From Candidatus Woesearchaeota archaeon (lineage in GTDB: Archaea > Nanobdellota > Nanobdellia > SCGC-AAA011-G17 > GW2011-AR20): a DNA stretch of 44,872 nucleotides. A model generated the notes under the pieces. That model did no database searches. It was not told the origin of the DNA and worked only from the letters and a program-made list of their open reading frames with translations. Shown in pieces: positions 5,136-31,909 of this stretch. The stretch is from the NCBI GenBank assembly GCA_016181245.1, contig JACOZR010000022.1:1-44872 (forward strand), in the 5' to 3' direction. Positions within the stretch are counted from its first letter, which is position 1; every line of letters begins with the position of its first letter. Both the position numbers and the translations under genes were made by a program.

Positions 5136-6089
5136 ATGGAAAAATTCAGAAAAATCATTAAATTTGGAACCTCATCTCTTATACTATCTTTACCTATTGA
5201 TTGGACTAAAAAAAATAAACTTGGAAAGGGAGATCTTCTCTCTATTTCTGAAAATGTTAATAATGAACTTGTTTTAAGTGTTCCATCTAAAAACAGGTCT
5301 GAACAAAGAAAAGAAATTGTTATTAATACTGAGAACAAGGATTTAACTAGAATTAAAAGAGAAATTGTTTCCTCTTACATTAATAACTATGGTATTATAA
5401 GAATTAAAGGAAAACTTTCTGCAAATTTTATTAAAGAGATTAAAAATATAATAACAGGATTAACTGCTTTAGAGGTAGTAGAACATAATGCTGATTCTTT
5501 AGTTGCTAAAGACTTTTTAGATATAGGAGAGATAACTTTTCAAGAAATATTAAGGAAAATGGATACTATAACGAGATCTATGATCGTTGATTTGAAAAAT
5601 ATATCCAAAGAAGATACTTCTCAGGCTATCCTTGAAAGAGATGAAGAAGTAAATAGGATGGTTTATTTGATTATAAGGACTATGAGATTTACTTTAGATA
5701 CTCCGAGTTTATCTCATAAAGAAAATAGAATAAGCATGGGGAATATTTTAAATGTGTGGGATGTTGCATTGACTGTCGAAGGTATTGCAGATGATATAAA
5801 AAGAACAGCAAGAGAATTTTCAAAAATGAGCACTTCTTTGCAAACTAAGAAAGAACTTTTAAAGGTTTTGGAGGAAATTGAGACTTTTTATTGGGAAACT
5901 ATGAAAGCGTATTATACTAATGATGTAGAATTGGCCTTTAGACTTTCTTTAAATAAATCAAATCTTTCTAAGAAGTGCAATGAATTGCATGAAAAAGTGT
6001 GGAATGTCAGGTATGCTCCTATTATTTTAGAAAACTTTAAAAGTATAGTTTCTTCAATTCATAATCTTGGAAGAAGAGTTTACAGTTAA
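5136..6089 (+). CDS. AbrB/SpoVT-domain plus PhoU-like regulator
   Basis: 317 aa. The N-terminus KFGTSSLILSLPIDWTKKNKLGKGDLL is a swapped-hairpin AbrB-type pattern, followed by a helical PhoU-like region. It is paralogous to 29102-29980. Confidence 0.7.
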   Translation: MEKFRKIIKFGTSSLILSLPIDWTKKNKLGKGDLLSISENVNNELVLSVPSKNRSEQRKEIVINTENKDLTRIKREIVSSYINNYGIIRIKGKLSANFIKEIKNIITGLTALEVVEHNADSLVAKDFLDIGEITFQEILRKMDTITRSMIVDLKNISKEDTSQAILERDEEVNRMVYLIIRTMRFTLDTPSLSHKENRISMGNILNVWDVALTVEGIADDIKRTAREFSKMSTSLQTKKELLKVLEEIETFYWETMKAYYTNDVELAFRLSLNKSNLSKKCNELHEKVWNVRYAPIILENFKSIVSSIHNLGRRVYS

Positions 6090-13929: not shown

Positions 13930-15846
13930 ATGCCAGTATTTACACAATACAAAGCTACAAAGAAAAGTAGAATTGATGGACTTGTTAATTATGTAAGAAC
14001 AGAACTGGGAGAATATAGATCTGGCTCGTTGGATAATTTATTGACATGCAATGAGTTGGGTGCTGTATTTGGGATATCATCTGGCTATGCTTCTTTACTT
14101 ATCCAAAGAAACTTTTCTTTGGCAGATAAAAACTATAGGATTGGGATAGTAGAACTCCAAAGAGGGAGAAGAGTTTCGGCTTCAAAAACTGGAATTAAGA
14201 AGTCTAGGCAGTCTGTAGAAAGAACCTCTAAAACTAAATTAAAAAATTTACTTATTAAACTGGATGGATTAAAACCTTATATTCTTGATGAGTTACGGGC
14301 GTATAAGGGAGGGCGTATTCAATTTTTGTCTTCAAACGATGAGCTTGCTTCACTTTATGGGGTTACTCACACAACTATACGTAAAATATCTCGAAGAATT
14401 TTGAATAAAAAAGATTCTTCACTTAGAGATAAAATATTAAGGGAAAACACTAGGAGAAAAATTTCTATTTCTAGGTCGAGTTATAATGAGGAAGGACGAA
14501 AATTATTGATTTCTGAAGTAAAAAGAGAACTATTCTTATATTCTTCTGGCAAGTCTTTTGCAGTTTCTTCTTCGGAGGAATTAGCTGAAAAATTTGGTAT
14601 CAGTTCTCAAACAGTTTATCTATGGATGAAAGAAGATTTACCTGATTCAGAAATTAGATCTAGAAACCAATATTTAGTTCAATCGCGGAAATTAAGATTA
14701 ACTGAGCAAAGACGAATTATACATGAAGATATAATTGACTTTATAAAAAAAGAGATTGTGGCTCATAGGGAAGGAAAAATTTCTAGAGTGACAGGTACAA
14801 CAAAACTGATGAGTAAATTTGGTATAACTCAAGGTCGTTTATCTTTTATTATTGATGAAAACCTTACAAAAGATGACATAGCATATAGGATTAGTGCCAT
14901 GAATAAACAACGTGCGGATGATTTTACTGCTGCTAGAACAAAAGAAAATTTATTAGACTTTTTAGATTATGTAAGTGATGAAATCCGTAGACATAGGTCT
15001 GGTGATTTGCCTAGACTTACTTTTGCTACTCAATTAGGTGAAGAATTTGATATCTGTGGCACTGCTGCATCTTATAGACTTCGTAAATATCTGGACAGAC
15101 AGGATTTTGATTATTGGTTAAATATTGTTAAGCAGCAAAAACTGAGTGATATGGCTAGTCTTAAAGGAGAAAAACATCCAATGTTTGGCAAGAAACATTC
15201 TCAAGAAACAAGACTTAAAATATCTAATGCTAATTCAAAAAAAGAAGGATTTCCGCAATGTATTGATTTTGTAAAAGCTGAAATAGAATTACATAAATAT
15301 GGGAATATAAGCAAATTTTCTAGTATAGGCTCTTTAGGTGAAAAATTTGGAATTTGTGGCCATACTATTCTGAAGTGGCTCAAGAAGGGATTATCTAAAG
15401 AAGAGCTTGATTATAGAAGAGATGTTACTAGGTCTCAAGTGGGAGTAAGGGGGGCAAATCACTATTTGTTTAATGGTCATATGCGTCTTAAGTATAGCGT
15501 TTTTTTTACAGATGTTATGAGATCTTATATCCGGGCAAGGGATAATTTTGAATGCCAGCTGTGTGGTGCAACTGAAGGAAGAAGAGCCCATCATGTTCAT
15601 CACATAGATTATAATAAGAAAAATGATGGTGAGATGAATTTAATACTATTATGCGGTAGATGCCACCCATCTATCGGTTCTTCTTTAATCTACTTGGGAG
15701 AAGTATGGAATTTCTTGTGTAACAAAAGGATAGAAGACATTTATGAGGATATGTTTGAAGAAAGATTTAGAGATTTGCAGCAATTTAAATTTGATTTGAT
15801 GGTTATAAATGGATTAGAAGGTTTATTGGATCAACATTTTGATTAA
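13930..15846 (+). CDS. HNH endonuclease with a NUMOD3 motif and six tandem HTH-type repeats
   Basis: 638 aa. Six ~55-aa repeat cores spaced ~75-105 aa apart share the core h..Eh..a+.G.....s...L...FGI....h. NUMOD3 GEKHPMFGKKHSQETRLKIS is at about 15163-15225. HNH CQLCG...HHVHHIDYNKKNDGEMNLILLCGRCH is at about 15535-15669. Confidence 0.75.
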   Translation: MPVFTQYKATKKSRIDGLVNYVRTELGEYRSGSLDNLLTCNELGAVFGISSGYASLLIQRNFSLADKNYRIGIVELQRGRRVSASKTGIKKSRQSVERTSKTKLKNLLIKLDGLKPYILDELRAYKGGRIQFLSSNDELASLYGVTHTTIRKISRRILNKKDSSLRDKILRENTRRKISISRSSYNEEGRKLLISEVKRELFLYSSGKSFAVSSSEELAEKFGISSQTVYLWMKEDLPDSEIRSRNQYLVQSRKLRLTEQRRIIHEDIIDFIKKEIVAHREGKISRVTGTTKLMSKFGITQGRLSFIIDENLTKDDIAYRISAMNKQRADDFTAARTKENLLDFLDYVSDEIRRHRSGDLPRLTFATQLGEEFDICGTAASYRLRKYLDRQDFDYWLNIVKQQKLSDMASLKGEKHPMFGKKHSQETRLKISNANSKKEGFPQCIDFVKAEIELHKYGNISKFSSIGSLGEKFGICGHTILKWLKKGLSKEELDYRRDVTRSQVGVRGANHYLFNGHMRLKYSVFFTDVMRSYIRARDNFECQLCGATEGRRAHHVHHIDYNKKNDGEMNLILLCGRCHPSIGSSLIYLGEVWNFLCNKRIEDIYEDMFEERFRDLQQFKFDLMVINGLEGLLDQHFD

Positions 15847-16024: not shown

Positions 16025-18359
<2,335 letters not shown>

Positions 18360-21134: not shown

Positions 21135-21723
21135 ACAATACTGCTATTCCTAAAACTATGAAATAAATTGTTTTATTCCATAAGAATACTTTTTTACCGT
21201 CTAATGGGCCAAAAGGAAGCATATTGAATATTGCTAGCCATGTATTTACAGAAATACCATATTGAGCAATTGTTATAATTAAACTATTTGAGCTCACTAG
21301 CCATAAGATAAAGAAGAGTATTGCTAAAACCAAATTTGTAATTGGTCCTGCTACTGAGATTCTTCCATTTCTTGGGATACCTACAAATCCTGAAATAAAA
21401 ACTGCACCTGGAGCAGCAAATATCCAGCCAGTAAATGATAATGCAATTGCTACTAAAAGCATTAAATCCCAGGACCTGAATTCTGCCCAGCAGCCATATT
21501 TCTGCGCTACTATTTTGTGAGCAAGTTCATGTAATAAAAATCCAAACCCTACTGCTATTGCTGACACTACCAAATTTTCAATAAACTTTTGAAAAGGAGC
21601 GTTGAATACACTATCATAACTATCGATACTAAAAGCAATTGCAAAAGCTATTGATATTGCTATCCATGCTTTTATCAAATCTCTTATTTCCTCTTTTGAT
21701 GTTTTAATTTTTATTTTTTTCAT
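21091..21723 (-). CDS. M50-family (site-2 protease-like) membrane metalloprotease
   Basis: 210 aa, polytopic and hydrophobic, with the HELAHK zinc motif. It overlaps the 3' end of aIF2-gamma by 20 nt. Confidence 0.8.
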   Translation of the reverse strand: MKKIKIKTSKEEIRDLIKAWIAISIAFAIAFSIDSYDSVFNAPFQKFIENLVVSAIAVGFGFLLHELAHKIVAQKYGCWAEFRSWDLMLLVAIALSFTGWIFAAPGAVFISGFVGIPRNGRISVAGPITNLVLAILFFILWLVSSNSLIITIAQYGISVNTWLAIFNMLPFGPLDGKKVFLWNKTIYFIVLGIAVLFMFGLPVLGSVLGQ

Positions 21724-22969
21724 TCTCTAAAGAAGCTACACCTATTAATCTCCAACGAGATCCTAAATTTCTTGAAATTGTTATTCTGTCTGTTTTTGAT
21801 ACACAAACCGGTATTTTTAATGAAACATGGATTATATCTTTTTTCATTTCTGTTACTGCGCCCACTGTTGCGGCTGAATTAACATTTAACATTAAAATTT
21901 CTCCTTTTTTTATTGGTTCAACTACTAAATCATCTTTTGCTCCAACTACTCTTTCTAATAATTTTGGTTTTATGTTAAATTCGTAAAATACTTCTGGAAC
22001 TTTGCCTTTTAATCCAACTACATTTCCTGTTAGATTATCTGATTTTACAATTGAAGGATCTAATGATGTTAATATTCCGGATGAACCTCCAGGAGATAAT
22101 TCTTTAACTTCTATCTCTCCTGTTTTTAATCCATTAATTTTTGTTATTATTGGTTTCCATACTGCTTTTGTTTCATCTATTTTTAAGCCTGGTCTTATTT
22201 CTATTTCCTCGTTTACTTTTAACTTTCCTTGCTTTAATGAACCACCTAAAACTCCGCCTACTAAACTGTTTATATCTGCGCCTGGCCTGTTAATGTCGAA
22301 GCTTCTCGCTACAAAAAATAATGGAGATGCATCTGAATCTCTTTTTGGAGTTTTTATTGTATTTTGAATTTCTTCCAATAATATATCAATATTAATATCG
22401 TGCAAGGCTGATATTGGGATTATAGGTGCTTTTTCAGCTATTGTGCCTTTTGTGAACTTCTTTATTTGCTCATAATTTTTTAGTGCTTGTTCTTCTGTTG
22501 TTAAATCTATTTTACTTTGGATTACTATTATGTTTTTAATTCCTATGATATCTAGAGCCATTAAATGCTCTCTTGTTTGCGGCTGAGGGCATTCTTCATT
22601 TGATGCTATTAATAATAATGCGCCGTCCATTATTGCTGCTCCTGAAAGCATTGTTGCCATTAAAGTTTCGTGACCTGGAGCATCTATGAATGAAATTTTT
22701 CTTTCAAAAATTGCTTTTGATTTACAAACTTCACATGTTTTTTTTGTTGTGTAATGATTCTTAGAACATTTGTAAATTGATGTATCTGCATAACCCAATC
22801 TAATTGTTATTCCTCTTTTAACTTCTTCAGAATGGGTGTCTGTCCACTTACCCGACAATCTTTCAGTTAGGGTTGTTTTGCCATGCAGTCGGATTTAAGT
22901 TTTTTCTTAAAATCTATCGACGTGGCCAATTAACCCTATATTGACTTCTGGTTGTGATTCTTTTTCCAT
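21704..22969 (-). CDS. eif2g: translation initiation factor aIF2 gamma, split by a 30-nt intron (exon 1 22916-22969, exon 2 21704-22885)
   Basis: The ORF-track protein begins at SGKWTDTHSEEVKRGITI and lacks the G1 motif. Exon 1 reads MEKESQPEVNIGLIGHVD. Exon 2 resumes HGKTTLTERLSGKW in the ORF frame. DAPGHETL and SKID are present. The joined length is about 411 aa. Confidence 0.85.
22886..22915 (-). other. BHB-type mini-intron in aIF2-gamma mRNA
   Basis: The RNA is AGAUUUUAAGAAAAAACUUAAAUCCGACUG with an in-frame UAA. It is flanked by a central helix GUCG/CGAC, 3-nt bulges AU|A and UG|C, an inner 8-bp stem and an outer helix GCCA/UGGC. Confidence 0.7.
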
Positions 22970-22992: not shown

Positions 22993-23000
22993 TTTATAAA
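22993..23000 (-). promoter_or_regulatory. TATA box (TTTATAAA) for a leaderless aIF2-gamma transcript
   Basis: Centred about 27 nt upstream of ATG 22969, and 5 nt downstream of the reverse-transcriptase stop codon. Confidence 0.4.
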
Positions 23001-23005
23001 GCTAA

Positions 23006-24223
23006 CTAGAAAGGAAGATCTTCTTCTAGACCCTCTAATGAGCATTCTCCTTGATTTGGAGGAATTTCTCCCATATAGACTTCATGAATCCATTCAATTT
23101 CACGCTCTGTAGCAATGCATTCTGGATCTAATGGAACTAGTTTATCTTTTGATTTTTCTTTGTTCATTTTAGTTATCCTATTTCCAATTATTTTATGCCC
23201 CAATAAATAAAATTCTGGAACATTTTGCTGGAAGAATACTTTATTTACTGCAATAGGAAACTCTCTTCGGACCATAGAAATTGCACCGCATATTTTTTCT
23301 GGATTGCGGTTAGTTTCTTTAGCACTGATTGTTATATCATCTACCCATCTTGTGTATCTCAGACCTTTTTTCAATGCACATATGTGGAGAACTTCATCTA
23401 TAGGATAGAATAACCTATTGAATAAGCAGATACTTATGGGAGATCCTACAGGAAGCGCTGAAATTTGCGTATCGCTATAATATACTGTTGATATGGATGT
23501 AAGAAATCCGGCTATATCCCTCCTTATTTCTCGGTTTTCAATTTTATTTTCAAATAATGTGTAATAAAAATCAAAAACATACTGAATATGCGTATTTTTA
23601 AATGCATTAGCTAGATCGAAAGATAATACTGTACCTAGAGGTAAATGCCTACTTAAGCTTTTTTTTGGTGAAAAACCTTGTTCTCCCCCGTGGCATTGGG
23701 AATGACAAGGAGCTTCCATTATAATCGGCTTTACGTATTCTATTAAAAGATGCTCTAAGGAATCTTGAGGAATGGAAATATCTCTAACTTTTCCGTTTAT
23801 TCTTTGTGACCACCTTTGGTACAAATGTTTTCTTTCTCCTTTCAATGCTAACAAATCGTCTAATAATACCTCTAACCTTTCCTGCTTGTTATCTAACATT
23901 GATAACTGATTGTCGAGTGGAAGAAGTTCTAATAATGTTTTTAGAATTATTTCTTTTTTACTCTCTAATACCTCTAAAGGGTTTCTTGTTTCTGAGAAGT
24001 ACTTAACAAGTTCATCTGCATAAGACATGGGAAGCCAAGGTCCTGTAAAATATGCACCAGGTACCAATGGTACTGAACTTAGAAATATCGTTGGTGTGCC
24101 GTCTGTATCAATTTCTAAATCTGGATTTTCACTAGGAATAACATCTAACCTACTGCCCATACTCATACAGTCTACGAATATTCTAAATCTTCTTCCGCTA
24201 GGAGCATACATCCGGTCTTCCAT
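23006..24223 (-). CDS. reverse transcriptase, unclassified stand-alone type
   Basis: 405 aa with collinear RT motifs: VRDISIP, SFDLANAF, LPVGSPISICLFN, RYTRWVDDITIS (VDD is encoded at 23336-23344) and FYLLGHKI. The N-terminal ~140 aa match no domain I know. Confidence 0.8.
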   Translation of the reverse strand: MEDRMYAPSGRRFRIFVDCMSMGSRLDVIPSENPDLEIDTDGTPTIFLSSVPLVPGAYFTGPWLPMSYADELVKYFSETRNPLEVLESKKEIILKTLLELLPLDNQLSMLDNKQERLEVLLDDLLALKGERKHLYQRWSQRINGKVRDISIPQDSLEHLLIEYVKPIIMEAPCHSQCHGGEQGFSPKKSLSRHLPLGTVLSFDLANAFKNTHIQYVFDFYYTLFENKIENREIRRDIAGFLTSISTVYYSDTQISALPVGSPISICLFNRLFYPIDEVLHICALKKGLRYTRWVDDITISAKETNRNPEKICGAISMVRREFPIAVNKVFFQQNVPEFYLLGHKIIGNRITKMNKEKSKDKLVPLDPECIATEREIEWIHEVYMGEIPPNQGECSLEGLEEDLPF

Positions 24224-29101: not shown

Positions 29102-29980
29102 ATGAAAAGAAGAATAGTAAAACAAGGAACCGCAACTATGATGGTTAGTTTGCCTGCAAAATGGATTAGAAAATTTAATCTTAAGAAGGGCGATGAAGTT
29201 TACGTTGAGGAGTTTGATAAAGGATTGATAATCAAAACTGATTCTTCTTTAGTTAACTCAAATAAAGCAATTATAGATGTTACTGGTTTTAATCCTTTGG
29301 TTAATAGGATTCTAATTTCCTTTTATGTTCGAGGAATTGATGAGTTAGAAGTAAGATTTTCTAATACAAGTGAAGTTTCTGATTTTCAAAAAAGAGTTAT
29401 AAACGAATTAATAGGATTTGAGATTATTAAACAAACTAACTCTAGTCTTATTATAAAAGATATTGCTACTGTAGACAACCAAAATATTGATGAGGTTGTT
29501 AACAGAATATTCTTAATTTTAGATTCTATGGCAGATGAGCTTGTTAATTCTATAAGCAAGAAACAAGATTTAAAACCTATTATTGACATGGATTCTAGCA
29601 TAAACAAATTTGTGAACTTTTGCTTGAGAATACTGAACAAGAAAGGGTATATTAGATTTGATAGAACATTGCAAATGTATTCAATAGTCTCTTTACTAGA
29701 AGAAATCGGAGATTTATATAAAAAGATTTCTTTAGAATTAAAAAAGAATAAGAATTTAGCAAATAATGATGTTTCTACGATTAGAGAACTGAAAGAATTT
29801 TTACATTTATATCATAAATTATTATTTAATTTTAATAAGAAAGAGGCTGTTATTTTTGCTAATAAATATGAAGCTATAAATAAAAAATTAAAACAAAAAA
29901 ATTTAGTTGATATTTACTTATTTCAAATTTTAGAAACTATAATCAGAATGAATAATCATCTTTTAGTTGTTTCTTTCTAG
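29102..29980 (+). CDS. AbrB/SpoVT-domain plus PhoU-like regulator (paralog of 5136-6089)
   Basis: 292 aa with the N-terminus KQGTATMMVSLPAKWIRKFNLKKGDEV followed by a helical PhoU-like region. Confidence 0.7.
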   Translation: MKRRIVKQGTATMMVSLPAKWIRKFNLKKGDEVYVEEFDKGLIIKTDSSLVNSNKAIIDVTGFNPLVNRILISFYVRGIDELEVRFSNTSEVSDFQKRVINELIGFEIIKQTNSSLIIKDIATVDNQNIDEVVNRIFLILDSMADELVNSISKKQDLKPIIDMDSSINKFVNFCLRILNKKGYIRFDRTLQMYSIVSLLEEIGDLYKKISLELKKNKNLANNDVSTIRELKEFLHLYHKLLFNFNKKEAVIFANKYEAINKKLKQKNLVDIYLFQILETIIRMNNHLLVVSF

Positions 29981-31909
29981 AGCCTTTCTGTATCCAACAA
30001 GTTTTTCTGAAAAGTCTGGTGTTGGTAATGCAAGTTCCCACCAAAACGTGTTTTCTACAATATGTTCTCTATGTATTGGTACTGCATAATACCCAATTAC
30101 TCTTCCGCTTTTATTTTTTAAAGCAAACTGTAGTGTTTTTGTGGTTGTATCTTCCCCTATGGGTAAACCAAGATTGGAAAAAATTCCATTAACAAAATTA
30201 CCTTGTCTTATCTCTGTTTTGAACCCATCTTCCGGTATTGATACATCACATGCTAGTTTTTCTTGTAGGGATTCATAATCTGGTGTTTCTATGCGTGGGA
30301 GTTCTGCATATCCTCCTAGTTCTAATGATCTTAGCCATACTTTGTCTTTTTGATTTCCAACAATTATTGGGACTCTTTTTCTTGCCAGGCATTTGCCGGG
30401 TTCTAAGTACTCTATTTCTTTTAATGCTGTTATAACGCCTTCTTTATCTGGCTTATCATGAGCGTATATCTCTGCTGCTAAGATATATATTCCATCTTCC
30501 TCTGGGGCTTTCATTTTTACATACGGATACCATCCATATCCTTCACTTCCTATATCATCGTATCTTTCTGCACTAACAGCAAACTCTATTGGTTGATATC
30601 CTTCGAAATATACTTTTCCTTCAAATGTGGGTATTGAACAATGACTTCTGTTAGGCCATGGCTTTTCTTTCACTTTTACATTTACTTCTATACTGTCTCC
30701 TTTGCCTAATGATAGAAACTTTTCTACATCTTTACACAGTTCATATGGATTTCTTTTATATACTTTAAGATTAATATCAACTAAGTTGTTATCAATACCT
30801 AATGTGGATCCGGAAAATTCAGCTTTCACTGGGTATTTTTGTTCTACTATTTTTTCAGTATTTGTTTGTAGATAACTAATCCCTGGAATAGCTAAACTTG
30901 CAGCGAATAAGCCTCCTACTAAAAATCTTTTAAGTCTTGATTTTGTTTTTGAATCTTTCTTTGTTGCTCTGTCAAAATCTTCAACTAATTCATCTATTGA
31001 ATTGTATCTTTCTGCTTCATTTAATGTCAAACATTTTCTGATTAATTGGGAATACTTTCTTGCTTTTCTTGGAATTAATTTTAATCCTCCTTCTAAAGTT
31101 TTGCTATGTTTCCTTTTGTCTATTAATCCCCCACTTAGTATACTCTCTCCTGTTACTGTGCTTTTTCCTTCTCTTTCTAAAAAATCATAACTGAATGGAA
31201 CTTTTCCTGTTAATGCATAGAACATATTCATACCTAGGGCATAAATTTCTGCTTGCTCTGTATATTTAGACTCTTGCCCTGTAAATGTGTCTCCTAATAA
31301 TGGGTCACGAACGAATCTTGCTCCAGCTGTTGGCATAACACTTTCTCTTATCTCTGCTATACTTGAAGAATTTGCTAAATCTGTTATTCTTGTCTCAATA
31401 CTTCCGTTTCTTCTCACTAAAATATTTGGAGGGGTCAGATCTCTGTGAAACAAACCTTTTTCTTTAATTAAATATCTTACTCCAGGTATTACTTGAGAAA
31501 AAACTGTTTCAAATTCTTTTGCCTCTAAAATACCATCTTCTTCTACTGTTCTTCTTAGAGATTTTGAACTAGTAAATTGTGGTTCTACTGACACATATGT
31601 TCCGTCTTGTTCATAAAAATCTGCTAATGGGCTTATACTATGTGCTAATGCTTCATCTATCCCCATTGATAATAAGGCTGAAATTTCATTTCTAGTATCA
31701 CAACCTCTTTCTCTTAACAACGTTCCATTCTGGGTACTTGGGACTTTGTCTACTTTTATGAAGACAGGTCTTCCTTCTCCATCTTTGCCTTGTAAAGCTG
31801 TAAATGTTTGACGCATAGAACCATTTTCCCCTCTAAAAGGTTGAAGTTTTGTGTACTTATTTGAAGGTAAAATTTCTCTAACTATATCTATTAAATTCTC
31901 TTTTTCCAT
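29963..31909 (-). CDS. membrane-anchored Ser/Thr protein kinase with a large C-terminal extracytoplasmic domain
   Basis: 648 aa with VFIKVDK (Lys), the HRDLTPPNILV catalytic loop, and ITDLA in place of DFG. A single TM helix, FLVGGLFAASLAIPGISYL, lies near aa 330. The C-terminal ~300 aa are unassigned. Confidence 0.8.
   Translation of the reverse strand: MEKENLIDIVREILPSNKYTKLQPFRGENGSMRQTFTALQGKDGEGRPVFIKVDKVPSTQNGTLLRERGCDTRNEISALLSMGIDEALAHSISPLADFYEQDGTYVSVEPQFTSSKSLRRTVEEDGILEAKEFETVFSQVIPGVRYLIKEKGLFHRDLTPPNILVRRNGSIETRITDLANSSSIAEIRESVMPTAGARFVRDPLLGDTFTGQESKYTEQAEIYALGMNMFYALTGKVPFSYDFLEREGKSTVTGESILSGGLIDKRKHSKTLEGGLKLIPRKARKYSQLIRKCLTLNEAERYNSIDELVEDFDRATKKDSKTKSRLKRFLVGGLFAASLAIPGISYLQTNTEKIVEQKYPVKAEFSGSTLGIDNNLVDINLKVYKRNPYELCKDVEKFLSLGKGDSIEVNVKVKEKPWPNRSHCSIPTFEGKVYFEGYQPIEFAVSAERYDDIGSEGYGWYPYVKMKAPEEDGIYILAAEIYAHDKPDKEGVITALKEIEYLEPGKCLARKRVPIIVGNQKDKVWLRSLELGGYAELPRIETPDYESLQEKLACDVSIPEDGFKTEIRQGNFVNGIFSNLGLPIGEDTTTKTLQFALKNKSGRVIGYYAVPIHREHIVENTFWWELALPTPDFSEKLVGYRKALERNN

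What the first reader, a model, noticed from the sequence alone, without database searches (positions are those of the whole stretch)
22880..22926. 30-nt bulge-helix-bulge mini-intron inside the P-loop codons of aIF2-gamma
The ORF-track protein starts at SGKWTDTHSEE and has no G1 motif. On the minus strand upstream, ATG 22969 opens MEKESQPEVNIGLIGHVD, which ends at 22916. The next 30 nt are AGAUUUUAAGAAAAAACUUAAAUCCGACUG and carry an in-frame UAA. After them, CAU GGC AAA ACA ACC reads HGKTTLTERLSGKW in the long-ORF frame. Deleting exactly 22886-22915 restores GHVD-HGKT and a normal-length protein of about 411 aa. The flanks fold as the archaeal hBHBh' motif. The outer helix GCCA/UGGC pairs exon 1 with exon 2, with one C.A mismatch next to it. 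The central 4-bp helix GUCG/CGAC pairs exon 1 with the intron. There are two 3-nt bulges, AU|A and UG|C. The inner stem GA(U)UUUAAG/CUUAAAUC is closed by an A6 loop. The tRNA splicing endonuclease cleaves after the second bulge nucleotide. Applied here, that rule cuts at exactly the two junctions needed to restore the frame. Introns in archaeal protein-coding genes are very rare (cbf5 in Crenarchaeota is the textbook case). I know of none described in the G1 motif of a translation factor.
Basis: partly seen in the sequence, partly recalled or inferred. Interest (0 to 1): 0.9.

Follow-up and report, generated by a model that had tools for sequence, protein, structure and literature searches.

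The report
Mobile mini-intron in aIF2-gamma P-loop
A 30-base insert splits the GTP-binding motif of an essential translation factor in a DPANN archaeon; it has the shape of a tRNA-type intron and belongs to a previously undescribed, patchily distributed family that usually travels with a homing-endonuclease gene.

Summary
On the minus strand, 22915..22886 is a clean 30-nt insertion between GHVD and HGKT of aIF2-gamma. Orthologues 87-94% identical lack it. Removing it gives a 411-aa protein that scores as aIF2-gamma. [quoted passage not shown]

A BHB-like motif alone is not significant in this window (24 found, 30 expected by chance). The comparative evidence carries the case:
- An independent metagenome contig (L083) has the identical intron at the same site.
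- Ten other Woesearchaeota/Nanoarchaeia loci carry a second mini-intron 8 nt upstream, 29-32 nt long.
- In all ten, cutting at the BHB positions restores GHVD[HN]GKT, including lengths that shift the frame.
- Their inner stems covary.
- The intron-bearing alleles are scattered among intronless relatives and share conserved exon flanks.
- Nine of the twelve distinct loci have a LAGLIDADG homing-endonuclease gene directly upstream. That gene often reads through exon 1 and stops inside the intron.

The window's copy has no endonuclease gene. It looks like an orphan acquired by gene conversion. Splicing itself is untested. I found no description of this in the searchable literature, where cbf5 is the only reported case of a BHB intron inside an archaeal coding sequence.

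The parts
22916..22969 (-). Exon 1 of aIF2-gamma (MEKESQPEVNIGLIGHVD), from the ATG at 22969 to the GAT of Asp18.
   Evidence: It aligns codon for codon with the intact orthologues L001, L163, L164 and L002.
22886..22915 (-). 30-nt BHB mini-intron AGAUUUUAAGAAAAAACUUAAAUCCGACUG, carrying two in-frame UAA codons.
   Evidence: It appears as a clean 30-nt gap against intronless orthologues. The identical sequence lies at the same site in L083. Removing it restores GHVDHGKT.
21704..22885 (-). Exon 2 of aIF2-gamma (HGKTTLTERLSGKW ... ENEKNKN, stop codon included).
   Evidence: The reading frame is full length, with dN/dS 0.07-0.10 against relatives.
22880..22926 (-). The hBHBh' motif.
- Outer helix: 22926-22923 pairs with 22883-22880.
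- C.A mismatch: 22922 with 22884.
- Central 4-bp helix: 22921-22918 pairs with 22891-22888.
- 5' bulge: 22917-22915. 3' bulge: 22887-22885.
- Inner stem: 22914-22906 pairs with 22899-22892.
- A6 loop: 22905-22900.
   Evidence: Unconstrained MFE fold, z = -3.85. The same structure is recovered inside a 131-nt context and for L083.
22870..22936 (-). Extended outer helix GGGUU (22936-22932) / AACCC (22874-22870), made only of exon sequence.
   Evidence: It appears in the MFE folds. The positions that differ from the intronless L001 (GGA to GGG, TTA to CTA) lie in it. It is inferred, not tested.
22866..22948 (-). 83-nt cassette (33 nt of exon 1, the intron, and 20 nt of exon 2) shared with L083 with a single difference. 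I read it as a gene-conversion (co-conversion) tract.
   Evidence: Eight of 9 informative sites group the window with L083 here, against 55:122 in the rest of the gene (Fisher p = 8e-4).
22993..23000 (-). TTTATAAA, the putative TATA box of aIF2-gamma, ending 24 nt upstream of the ATG.
   Evidence: Part of a TTTATAAAT stretch shared by all five loci that keep the native upstream region (window, L163, L001, L164, L002). Assigning it as the promoter is an inference.

Best explanation
**What it is.** The 30 nt are a bulge-helix-bulge intron in the pre-mRNA of the single-copy, essential aIF2-gamma gene of a Woesearchaeota-like DPANN archaeon.

**How it works (inferred).**
- The transcript folds so that exon 1 pairs with the 3' part of the intron (GUCG/CGAC) and with exon 2 (GCCA/UGGC).
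- The tRNA-splicing endonuclease EndA cuts after the second nucleotide of each 3-nt bulge.
- An RtcB-type ligase joins GAU to CAU, which restores GHVD-HGKT.
- Unspliced RNA cannot yield a GTPase, because two UAA codons lie in the intron.

**How it got there (inferred).**
- The intron belongs to a family of mini-introns that target the P-loop codons of aIF2-gamma at two sites 8 nt apart.
- In most relatives the intron sits just downstream of a free-standing LAGLIDADG homing-endonuclease gene.
- I propose that this enzyme cuts intronless P-loop DNA. The intron splits the target and so protects its carrier.
- Break repair copies the intron, some flanking exon and often the endonuclease gene into new genomes. 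This is collaborative homing.
- The window's allele is an orphan. It received the 83-nt intron cassette but not the endonuclease gene.

**Shown:** the anatomy, frame restoration, covariation, patchy distribution, the mosaic tracts, and the linkage and fold of the endonuclease gene.

**Inferred:** splicing by EndA/RtcB, the endonuclease's target, and the direction of transfer.
For: 1. The insertion is exact, and the BHB rule cuts exactly at its boundaries.
2. L083, from a separate JGI assembly, has the identical 30 nt at the same site, although the two genes differ at dS 0.67. If the intron evolved neutrally, 30 identical bases would have p about 2e-8.
3. Ten distinct site-2 introns of 29, 30, 31 and 32 nt all restore G-H-V-D-[H/N]-G-K-T when cut at GGAC|A...AG|A. 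In the 29-, 31- and 32-nt cases exon 1 and exon 2 lie in different frames.
4. Covariation across these ten:
   - 91.9% of cells are paired, against 29-44% when the partners are slid.
   - Inner-stem pair 29-46 is GC4/AU3/CG1/UA1.
   - Outer pair 18-58 changes GC to AU in 2 sequences.
   - 0 of 500 shuffles reach the covariation score.
5. Every spliced gene whose contig is long enough is full length with the conserved C-terminus. dN/dS is 0.07-0.10 for the close window comparisons, and 0.18-0.37 for two distant site-2 pairs where dS is near saturation.
6. The nearest relative of every intron-bearing allele is intronless: L083-L163 99%, window-L001 94%, L173-L013 91%.
7. L083 and L163 are about 99.3% identical over 3.4 kb, but differ at 11 of 66 nt flanking the site. 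In that stretch L083 equals the window (p about 1e-12).
8. None of 116 unique intronless P-loop DNAs uses the exon codons shared by the intron-bearing alleles.
9. An endonuclease homologue lies directly upstream in L083 and L091, and in no other of 162 loci (Fisher p = 8e-4). All 7 contigs fetched through that protein family carry an interrupted aIF2-gamma. At least 22 family members end in the exon-1 peptide followed by a stop.
10. The endonuclease model has pLDDT 93.5 and matches I-DmoI, I-Tsp061I and intein endonucleases. D221 is invariant and E330/E332 nearly so. Pfam LAGLIDADG_3 hits 18 of 25 members.
Against: - There is no transcript evidence and no enzyme assay. Neither EndA nor RtcB was seen among the window ORFs scanned, and the rest of the genome is not available.
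- The window BHB is relaxed: a C.A mismatch next to the central helix and a bulged U in the inner stem. Site-2 introns carry an extra unpaired A, and RNAfold often prefers a 3-bp register that would not restore the frame.
- BHB-like motifs are as common as chance in this AT-rich window.
- Only two site-1 copies are known and they are identical, so there is no covariation for the window's own intron.
- The window has no endonuclease gene. L083's copy appears frameshifted.
- The conserved exon flanks could reflect selection for pairing rather than co-conversion.
- Most site-2 loci were found through the endonuclease protein, which biases the linkage count.
Confidence: 0.78

Rival explanations
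1. It is a real, spliced BHB intron, but it is inherited vertically and lost repeatedly, with no endonuclease-driven transfer. On this view the conserved flanks and the identical intron reflect selection for the BHB fold, and the neighbouring endonuclease gene targets something else.
For: - Most flank positions shared by the window and L083 lie in predicted helices.
- The cbf5 intron shows gain and loss without any known endonuclease (PMC2738675).
- The window, L008 and L030 lack the endonuclease gene.
Against: - The A6 loop and non-helical flank sites are also identical between the window and L083, despite dS 0.67.
- L083 is a sharp mosaic against a 99.3%-identical sister.
- Intron-bearing alleles are scattered across hosts only 57-70% identical to one another, yet share near-identical intron ends and exon codons that occur in 0 of 116 intronless alleles.
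- The endonuclease gene was found only next to interrupted alleles.
Confidence: 0.15
2. The insertion has inactivated this copy. It is a pseudogene or a recent lethal-looking lesion tolerated because another aIF2-gamma exists elsewhere in the genome.
For: - Two in-frame stops lie in the P-loop.
- Only 44.9 kb of the genome can be seen.
- Gene callers leave the gene truncated or uncalled in related contigs.
Against: - The locus is the syntenic, orthologous one: aIF2g, M50 peptidase, gyrA, gyrB.
- There is no other lesion, and dN/dS is 0.07-0.10 in the close window comparisons.
- Exon 1 stays conserved in 12 distinct interrupted alleles from diverse lineages, and all with a long enough contig have intact full-length frames after removal.
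- No second copy lies in the window. None appears for the L008 and L030 genomes among the loci returned.
Confidence: 0.04
3. The 30 nt stay in the mRNA and are skipped by the ribosome, as in the programmed translational bypass of T4 gene 60. Or they are dealt with by another recoding event.
For: A stop codon follows soon after the 5' junction and a hairpin sits there, which superficially resembles gene 60 (direct reading).
Against: - There are no matched take-off and landing codons. GAU takes off, but the codon before CAU GGC is CUG. The only GAC in the insert would land out of frame (direct reading).
- The site-2 introns likewise lack matched codons.
- The BHB geometry, not codon matching, predicts the correct junction in all 12 cases.
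Confidence: 0.02
4. It is an assembly or sequencing artefact.
For: The window is probably from a metagenome assembly. Its truncated protein is not on record in the gene index.
Against: - The identical intron occurs in an independent JGI contig with a different genomic background.
- Site-2 introns were each recovered twice in separate assemblies: L008/L089, L030/L117, L165/L166, L168/L169.
- An artefact would not produce a precise BHB.
Confidence: 0.01

Closest known systems
cbf5 pre-mRNA intron of Crenarchaeota (Watanabe 2002; Yokobori 2009, PMC2738675)
   Same: - It is a short BHB-type intron (16-44 bp) with no ORF, inside a protein-coding gene.
- It disrupts the codon of an essential residue, so it must be spliced out.
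- Its distribution is patchy, with gain and loss.
   Different: - The gene differs (aIF2-gamma G1/P-loop) and so does the superphylum (DPANN).
- There are two alternative insertion sites 8 nt apart.
- Lengths are 29-32 nt.
- A homing-endonuclease gene is linked to it in relatives. For cbf5 no mobility agent is known, and the authors noted that the intron is too short to encode one.
Archaeal rRNA/tRNA BHB introns encoding LAGLIDADG endonucleases (I-DmoI, I-Tsp061I)
   Same: - They combine a BHB splice motif with a LAGLIDADG enzyme.
- The predicted structure of the neighbouring gene's product matches I-DmoI (TM 0.63 on the target) and I-Tsp061I.
   Different: - In those introns the endonuclease ORF lies inside the intron and the host gene is an RNA gene.
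- Here the ORF lies upstream of the host protein gene, contains that gene's TATA box, reads through exon 1 and stops inside a 30-nt intron.
Collaborative or trans homing of endonuclease-less group I introns by free-standing endonucleases in phages (T4 mobE and the nrdB intron, PMC2790892; cyanophage F-CphI and psbA, PMC6083498)
   Same: - A free-standing endonuclease gene sits next to an intron that has no ORF of its own.
- Intron, endonuclease gene and flanking exon are co-converted.
- The intron can persist as an orphan.
   Different: - The intron here is not self-splicing. It depends on the host tRNA-splicing enzymes.
- The hosts are archaeal cells, not phages.
- Cleavage at the insertion site is only inferred.
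Inteins in P-loops of archaeal NTPases, including the aIF2 entry in the survey of PMC4760082
   Same: A selfish element with a LAGLIDADG domain occupies the same conserved motif. L072 has a 565-aa intein after GHVDHGK.
   Different: - An intein is removed at the protein level.
- There is no detectable sequence relationship between the L072 intein and the free-standing endonuclease family.

Membership tests
Archaeal BHB (hBHBh') intron | Two 3-nt bulges on opposite strands, separated by a 4-bp helix. | tested here: met
   The unconstrained MFE fold gives GUCG/CGAC flanked by AUA and UGC. L083 gives the same.
Archaeal BHB (hBHBh') intron | Flanking helices h (exon-exon) and h' (intron-intron). 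| tested here: met
   h is GCCA/UGGC after one C.A mismatch, plus a distal GGGUU/AACCC. h' is 8 bp with one bulged U. This is the relaxed form, not the strict one.
Archaeal BHB (hBHBh') intron | Cutting after the second bulge nucleotide on both sides gives a functional junction. | tested here: met
   The cut sites are 22916|22915 and 22886|22885. The product is GHVDHGKT in a 411-aa aIF2-gamma. The rule also holds for 10 site-2 introns of 29-32 nt.
Archaeal BHB (hBHBh') intron | The structure is kept through compensatory changes among homologous introns. | tested here: inconclusive
   For the window's site-1 intron only two copies exist and they are identical. For the sister site-2 family the feature is met.
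Archaeal BHB (hBHBh') intron | Cleaved by the splicing endonuclease EndA and ligated by RtcB; spliced RNA exists. | not testable with these tools
   There are no transcript data. No EndA or RtcB was found among the window ORFs scanned. No tRNA genes occur in the window or in 30 related loci, so the lineage's own introns could not be examined.
cbf5-type protein-coding BHB intron | Located in cbf5 of Desulfurococcales or Sulfolobales. | tested here: not met
   The host gene is aIF2-gamma of a Woesearchaeota-like archaeon.
cbf5-type protein-coding BHB intron | Short, without an ORF, and interrupting an essential motif. | tested here: met
   It is 30 nt and lies inside the G1 motif. The cbf5 range is 16-44 bp.
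LAGLIDADG homing endonuclease (gene linked to the intron in relatives) | Two LAGLIDADG-type motifs with acidic catalytic residues, and the alpha-beta-beta-alpha-beta-beta-alpha fold. | tested here: met
   The motifs are GKWIGDRCGG and FYAGLFEAEGS. D221 is invariant and E330/E332 nearly so. The AF2 model has pLDDT 93.5. Foldseek hits include I-DmoI at 4.6e-5 and the TliVMA intein endonuclease at 7.7e-6. Pfam PF14528 hits 18 of 25 members, mostly below the gathering score.
LAGLIDADG homing endonuclease (gene linked to the intron in relatives) | Present next to the intron in this window. | tested here: not met
   tblastn finds no homologue in the window. That position holds a retron-like reverse transcriptase gene.
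Mobile intron spread by (collaborative) homing | Patchy distribution among close relatives. | tested here: met
   Presence/absence pairs occur at 99% and 94% protein identity.
Mobile intron spread by (collaborative) homing | Co-conversion of flanking exon sequence. | tested here: met
   An 83-nt cassette is shared by the window and L083. L083 is a mosaic against L163. Selection for pairing is an alternative reading.
Mobile intron spread by (collaborative) homing | The endonuclease cleaves the intronless allele at or near the insertion site and spares the intron-bearing allele. | not testable with these tools
   This needs an enzyme assay.
Programmed translational bypass (T4 gene 60 type) | Matched take-off and landing codons flanking the gap. 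| tested here: not met
   The flanking codons are GAU and CUG. The only GAC in the insert is out of frame.

The most novel reading that the evidence does not exclude
The mini-intron is one half of a two-part selfish element of DPANN archaea.
- A free-standing LAGLIDADG endonuclease targets the P-loop DNA of aIF2-gamma.
- A host-spliced BHB mini-intron splits that target and makes the insertion harmless.
- The two parts spread together by collaborative homing and leave orphan introns such as the one in this window.

Because the endonuclease ORF ends at a stop inside the intron, intron retention versus splicing could also decide whether a long transcript yields the endonuclease alone or an endonuclease-aIF2-gamma fusion.
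Probability: 0.5. Interest if true: 0.9.

Novelty: new variant of a known kind. Interest (0 to 1): 0.82.

Why it matters
- Since 2002, cbf5 has been the only gene reported to carry a BHB intron inside an archaeal coding sequence. How such ORF-less mini-introns arise and move has remained open (PMC2738675).
- This finding adds a second host gene, an essential translation factor cut in its GTP-binding motif, and a second superphylum.
- It also offers a concrete, testable mobility agent.
- Gene callers truncate or miss aIF2-gamma in these genomes. That affects completeness estimates and marker-gene phylogenies of DPANN MAGs.
- If the linkage to the endonuclease holds, it extends collaborative homing from self-splicing phage introns to protein-spliced archaeal introns.
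- It would also supply natural LAGLIDADG enzymes with a defined, highly conserved target.

Tried and rejected
- **Rfam at gathering thresholds on the window:** no hit.
- **tRNA scans of the window and 30 related loci,** to look at the lineage's own tRNA introns: no tRNA genes at all.
- **Loose BHB scan:** 900 hits against about 1120 expected, so uninformative.
- **Strict BHB scan:** 24 hits against 30 expected, and no other hit restores a broken frame. The window therefore shows no second interrupted gene, and the motif alone proves nothing.
- **Sequence search of the endonuclease profile against PDB:** no hit. Only the fold search worked.
- **hhalign of the endonuclease family against the L072 intein:** not significant.
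- **Exact look-up of the window's truncated 384-aa product:** not on record, so the source sample stays unknown.
- **Pattern scans of viral contigs for both intron types:** 0 hits.
- **Ideas considered and dropped:** translational bypass (no matched codons), an intein (30 nt with stops), stop-codon readthrough (two UAA, and 10 extra residues inside the P-loop), and intron sliding from site 2 to site 1 (no sequence similarity between the two intron types beyond the shared design).
- **The reverse transcriptase next to the gene:** I did not pursue a role for it. Any link to intron gain or loss is speculation.
Full report
**1. The observation**

On the minus strand the window reads ATG(22969) GAA AAA GAA TCA CAA CCA GAA GTC AAT ATA GGG TTA ATT GGC CAC GTC GAT, then AGATTTTAAGAAAAAACTTAAATCCGACTG, then CAT GGC AAA ACA ACC. 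The mechanical ORF list has only a 384-aa frame starting at TTG 22858, with no G1 motif.

Deleting 22915..22886 gives a 411-aa protein with GHVDHGKT. It scores 623.9 bits on NCBIfam NF003077 (cut-off 315) and 615.1 bits on TIGR03680 (cut-off 514.5). Read through, the insert gives RF*EKT*IRL, so it cannot be translated.

The closest database proteins are intact:
- P0001: 94% identical, 411 aa.
- P0002: 92% identical.
- P0003: 88% identical.
- P0004: 87% identical, annotated as from a Woesearchaeota archaeon.

Alignment of their DNA with the window shows one clean 30-nt gap between GAY and CAT. The gene order aIF2g, M50-like peptidase, gyrA, gyrB is conserved, so this is the orthologous locus.

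**2. The fold**

The structure survives in a 131-nt context. Its parts are:
- Outer helix GCCA/UGGC.
- A C.A mismatch.
- Central helix GUCG/CGAC.
- Bulges AU|A and UG|C.
- An inner stem with one bulged U.
- An A6 loop.

The cut-after-second-bulge-nucleotide rule falls on the two insertion boundaries.

One caution is needed. A strict BHB pattern scan of the whole window gives 24 hits against 30 expected by chance. The motif alone is therefore not evidence. What is improbable is the coincidence with one pre-defined pair of positions, about 7e-6 per pair.

**3. Relatives: the same intron elsewhere**

A protein-guided scan of metagenome contigs found L083 (Ga0209541_10009356). It carries the identical 30 nt at the same site.

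Elsewhere the two genes are about 85% identical in DNA, with dS 0.67 and dN/dS 0.10. A stretch of 83 nt (33 nt of exon 1, the intron, and 20 nt of exon 2) differs at only one base. By my arithmetic, p is about 2e-5 at 15% divergence. Thirty identical neutral sites would have p about 2e-8.

**4. A second insertion site**

Two of the 80 best species-representative aIF2-gamma loci carry mini-inserts 8 nt upstream, inside the His codon:
- L008, a Woesearchaeota MAG.
- L030, a Nanoarchaeia MAG.

The metagenome scan added L091, and recovered L008 and L030 again as L089 and L117. Seven more loci came from contigs fetched through a neighbouring protein family described in section 6: L165, L167, L168, L170, L171, L172 and L173.

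The ten distinct site-2 introns are 30, 29, 30, 30, 30, 31, 32, 30, 31 and 30 nt long. All have these features:
- Central helix UUGG/CCAA.
- Bulges AC|A and AG|A.
- An inner hairpin of unrelated sequence.

In every case, cutting at GGAC|A...AG|A restores G-H-V-D-[H/N]-G-K-T. This includes the 29-, 31- and 32-nt cases, where exon 1 and exon 2 lie in different frames.

On the alignment A3, the pair counts are as follows:
- 91.9% of cells pair, against 29-44% when the 3' partners are slid.
- Inner pair 29-46 is GC4/AU3/CG1/UA1.
- Outer pair 18-58 is GC8/AU2.
- No shuffle out of 500 reaches the covariation score.

RNAalifold finds 6 pairs with double changes.

There is one complication. RNAfold often prefers a register with a 3-bp central helix. 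Only the canonical 4-bp register restores the frame.

**5. The genes are alive, and the intron is patchy**

All interrupted genes on long enough contigs are full length after removal and end in the conserved ...ISR..G.RWRLIG motif. The window has no second aIF2-gamma.

The nearest neighbour of each intron-bearing allele is intronless:
- L083 and L163: 99%.
- Window and L001: 94%.
- L173 and L013: 91%.
- L030 and L005: 79%.
- L008 and L011: 78%.

L083 and L163 are about 99.3% identical over 3.4 kb. Yet they differ at 11 of the 66 nt flanking the site, and in that stretch L083 matches the window.

Between the window, L001 and L083, 8 of 9 informative sites within -33..+20 group the window with L083. 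The ratio is 55:122 elsewhere in the gene (Fisher p = 8e-4).

Codon choice points the same way:
- None of 116 unique intronless P-loop DNAs has GGTCTYRTTGGACA, which 9 of 10 site-2 alleles have.
- None has the window's GGCCACGTCGATCATGGC.

These patterns fit gene conversion with co-converted flanks. Selection for pairing can explain part of them.

**6. The linked endonuclease gene**

L083 has a 345-aa ORF directly upstream of aIF2-gamma on the same strand. L091 has a homologous 424-codon ORF that runs in frame into exon 1. Nothing similar occurs in the window or in the other 162 loci.

The family is small:
- 25 proteins in the 5.8-billion-protein set, the named ones from Woesearchaeota or Nanoarchaeia.
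- 26 clusters at E <= 1e-30 in the representative library.
- One member is named a LAGLIDADG homing endonuclease by NCBI.
- Pfam PF14528 hits 18 of 25 members.
- D221 in GDRCGG is invariant and E330/E332 in EAEGS nearly so.

An AlphaFold model with pLDDT 93.5 matches I-DmoI, I-Tsp061I, PI-SceI and the TliVMA intein endonuclease.

At least 22 members end with an aIF2-gamma exon-1 peptide and a stop right after GH or GQ. All 7 contigs fetched through the family show the interrupted gene immediately downstream.

The conserved C-terminal FIK/FIN motif of the enzyme is encoded by TTTATAAA, the aIF2-gamma TATA box (direct reading). L083's copy looks frameshifted. P0134 and P0150 end at the same truncated point, and P0161 matches the shifted remainder of the L083-type C-terminus.

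**7. Mechanism**

I infer that EndA and RtcB splice the mRNA.

I infer more tentatively that the endonuclease cuts intronless P-loop DNA. The intron protects its carrier, and repair spreads intron, flanks and often the endonuclease gene. This matches the logic of collaborative or trans homing in phages (PMC2790892).

The window holds only the cassette. The position upstream of its native promoter holds a retron-like reverse transcriptase gene.

**8. Literature**

The searchable library reports the following:
- cbf5 is the only BHB intron reported inside an archaeal coding sequence. Apart from it, the only mRNA case reported is a BHB intron in the 5' UTR of Haloferax HVO_1309 (PMC7714728; PMC2738675).
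- DPANN EndA enzymes with the L3 loop are associated with more disrupted tRNA genes (PMC5829648).
- No paper on an aIF2-gamma intron, or on this endonuclease family, was found. Subscription journals are not covered.

**9. Verdict**

The wider picture is a new variant of a known kind. Splicing and endonuclease specificity are untested.

Noticed in passing
window 23006..24223 (-): A 405-aa retron-like reverse transcriptase sits immediately upstream of the aIF2-gamma promoter.
- Best matches: PADLOC RT_VI 1.7e-24; NCBIfam retron St85 family 1.5e-19, below its cut-off; Pfam RVT_1.
- The gene is absent at this position in L001, L164 and L083. In L083 the same position holds the homing-endonuclease gene, so it is a hot spot for insertions.
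   Followed up: partly
window 13930..15846 (+): A 638-aa ORF with NUMOD3, HNH-endonuclease and helix-turn-helix domains lies just upstream of gyrB (16064..17953). It looks like a second free-standing homing-endonuclease-type gene next to a conserved housekeeping gene.
   Followed up: no
L072 1318..3030 (Nanoarchaeota SCGC AAA011-G17, AQRL01000029.1): The aIF2-gamma gene carries a 565-aa intein (C...HN|T) inserted after GHVDHGK, in the same P-loop. It has LAGLIDADG-like motifs. It shows no significant similarity to the free-standing endonuclease family.
   Followed up: partly
L091 1774..3048; L165 2501..3784; L167 2501..3820; L170-L173: The endonuclease ORF contains the TATA box of aIF2-gamma in its conserved C-terminal motif. 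It continues in frame through exon 1 and uses a stop codon at the start of the mini-intron. A spliced long transcript would therefore encode an endonuclease-aIF2-gamma fusion. Whether this in-frame arrangement is selected is unexplained.
   Followed up: partly
L005, L006, L010, L019, L021, L042, L065; also L030, L168, L172: Some Woesearchaeota/Nanoarchaeia aIF2-gamma genes have GHVDNGKT or GQVDSGKT in place of the usual GHVDHGKT in the G1 motif.
   Followed up: no
L165 3785..5013; L167 3821..5124; L173 4130..5083: In public annotations the interrupted aIF2-gamma is either not called at all or called as a 317-aa fragment. This universal marker gene is therefore missed or truncated in these MAGs.
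   Followed up: no
window 22886..22921 (-): The site-1 intron and its 5' junction form a near-perfect palindrome around the A6 loop (GTCGATAGATTTTAAG AAAAAA CTTAAATCCGAC). This shape would fit an origin by fold-back synthesis at a DNA break. That is speculation only.
   Followed up: no
window 29963..31909 (-); 5136..6089 (+); 29102..29980 (+): There is a 648-aa protein with a eukaryote-type Ser/Thr kinase domain (Pfam Pkinase 3.6e-18). Two further proteins, of 317 and 292 aa, have an N-terminal MazE/AbrB-like domain. Several large ORFs (495, 503 and 617 aa) have no Pfam match.
   Followed up: no
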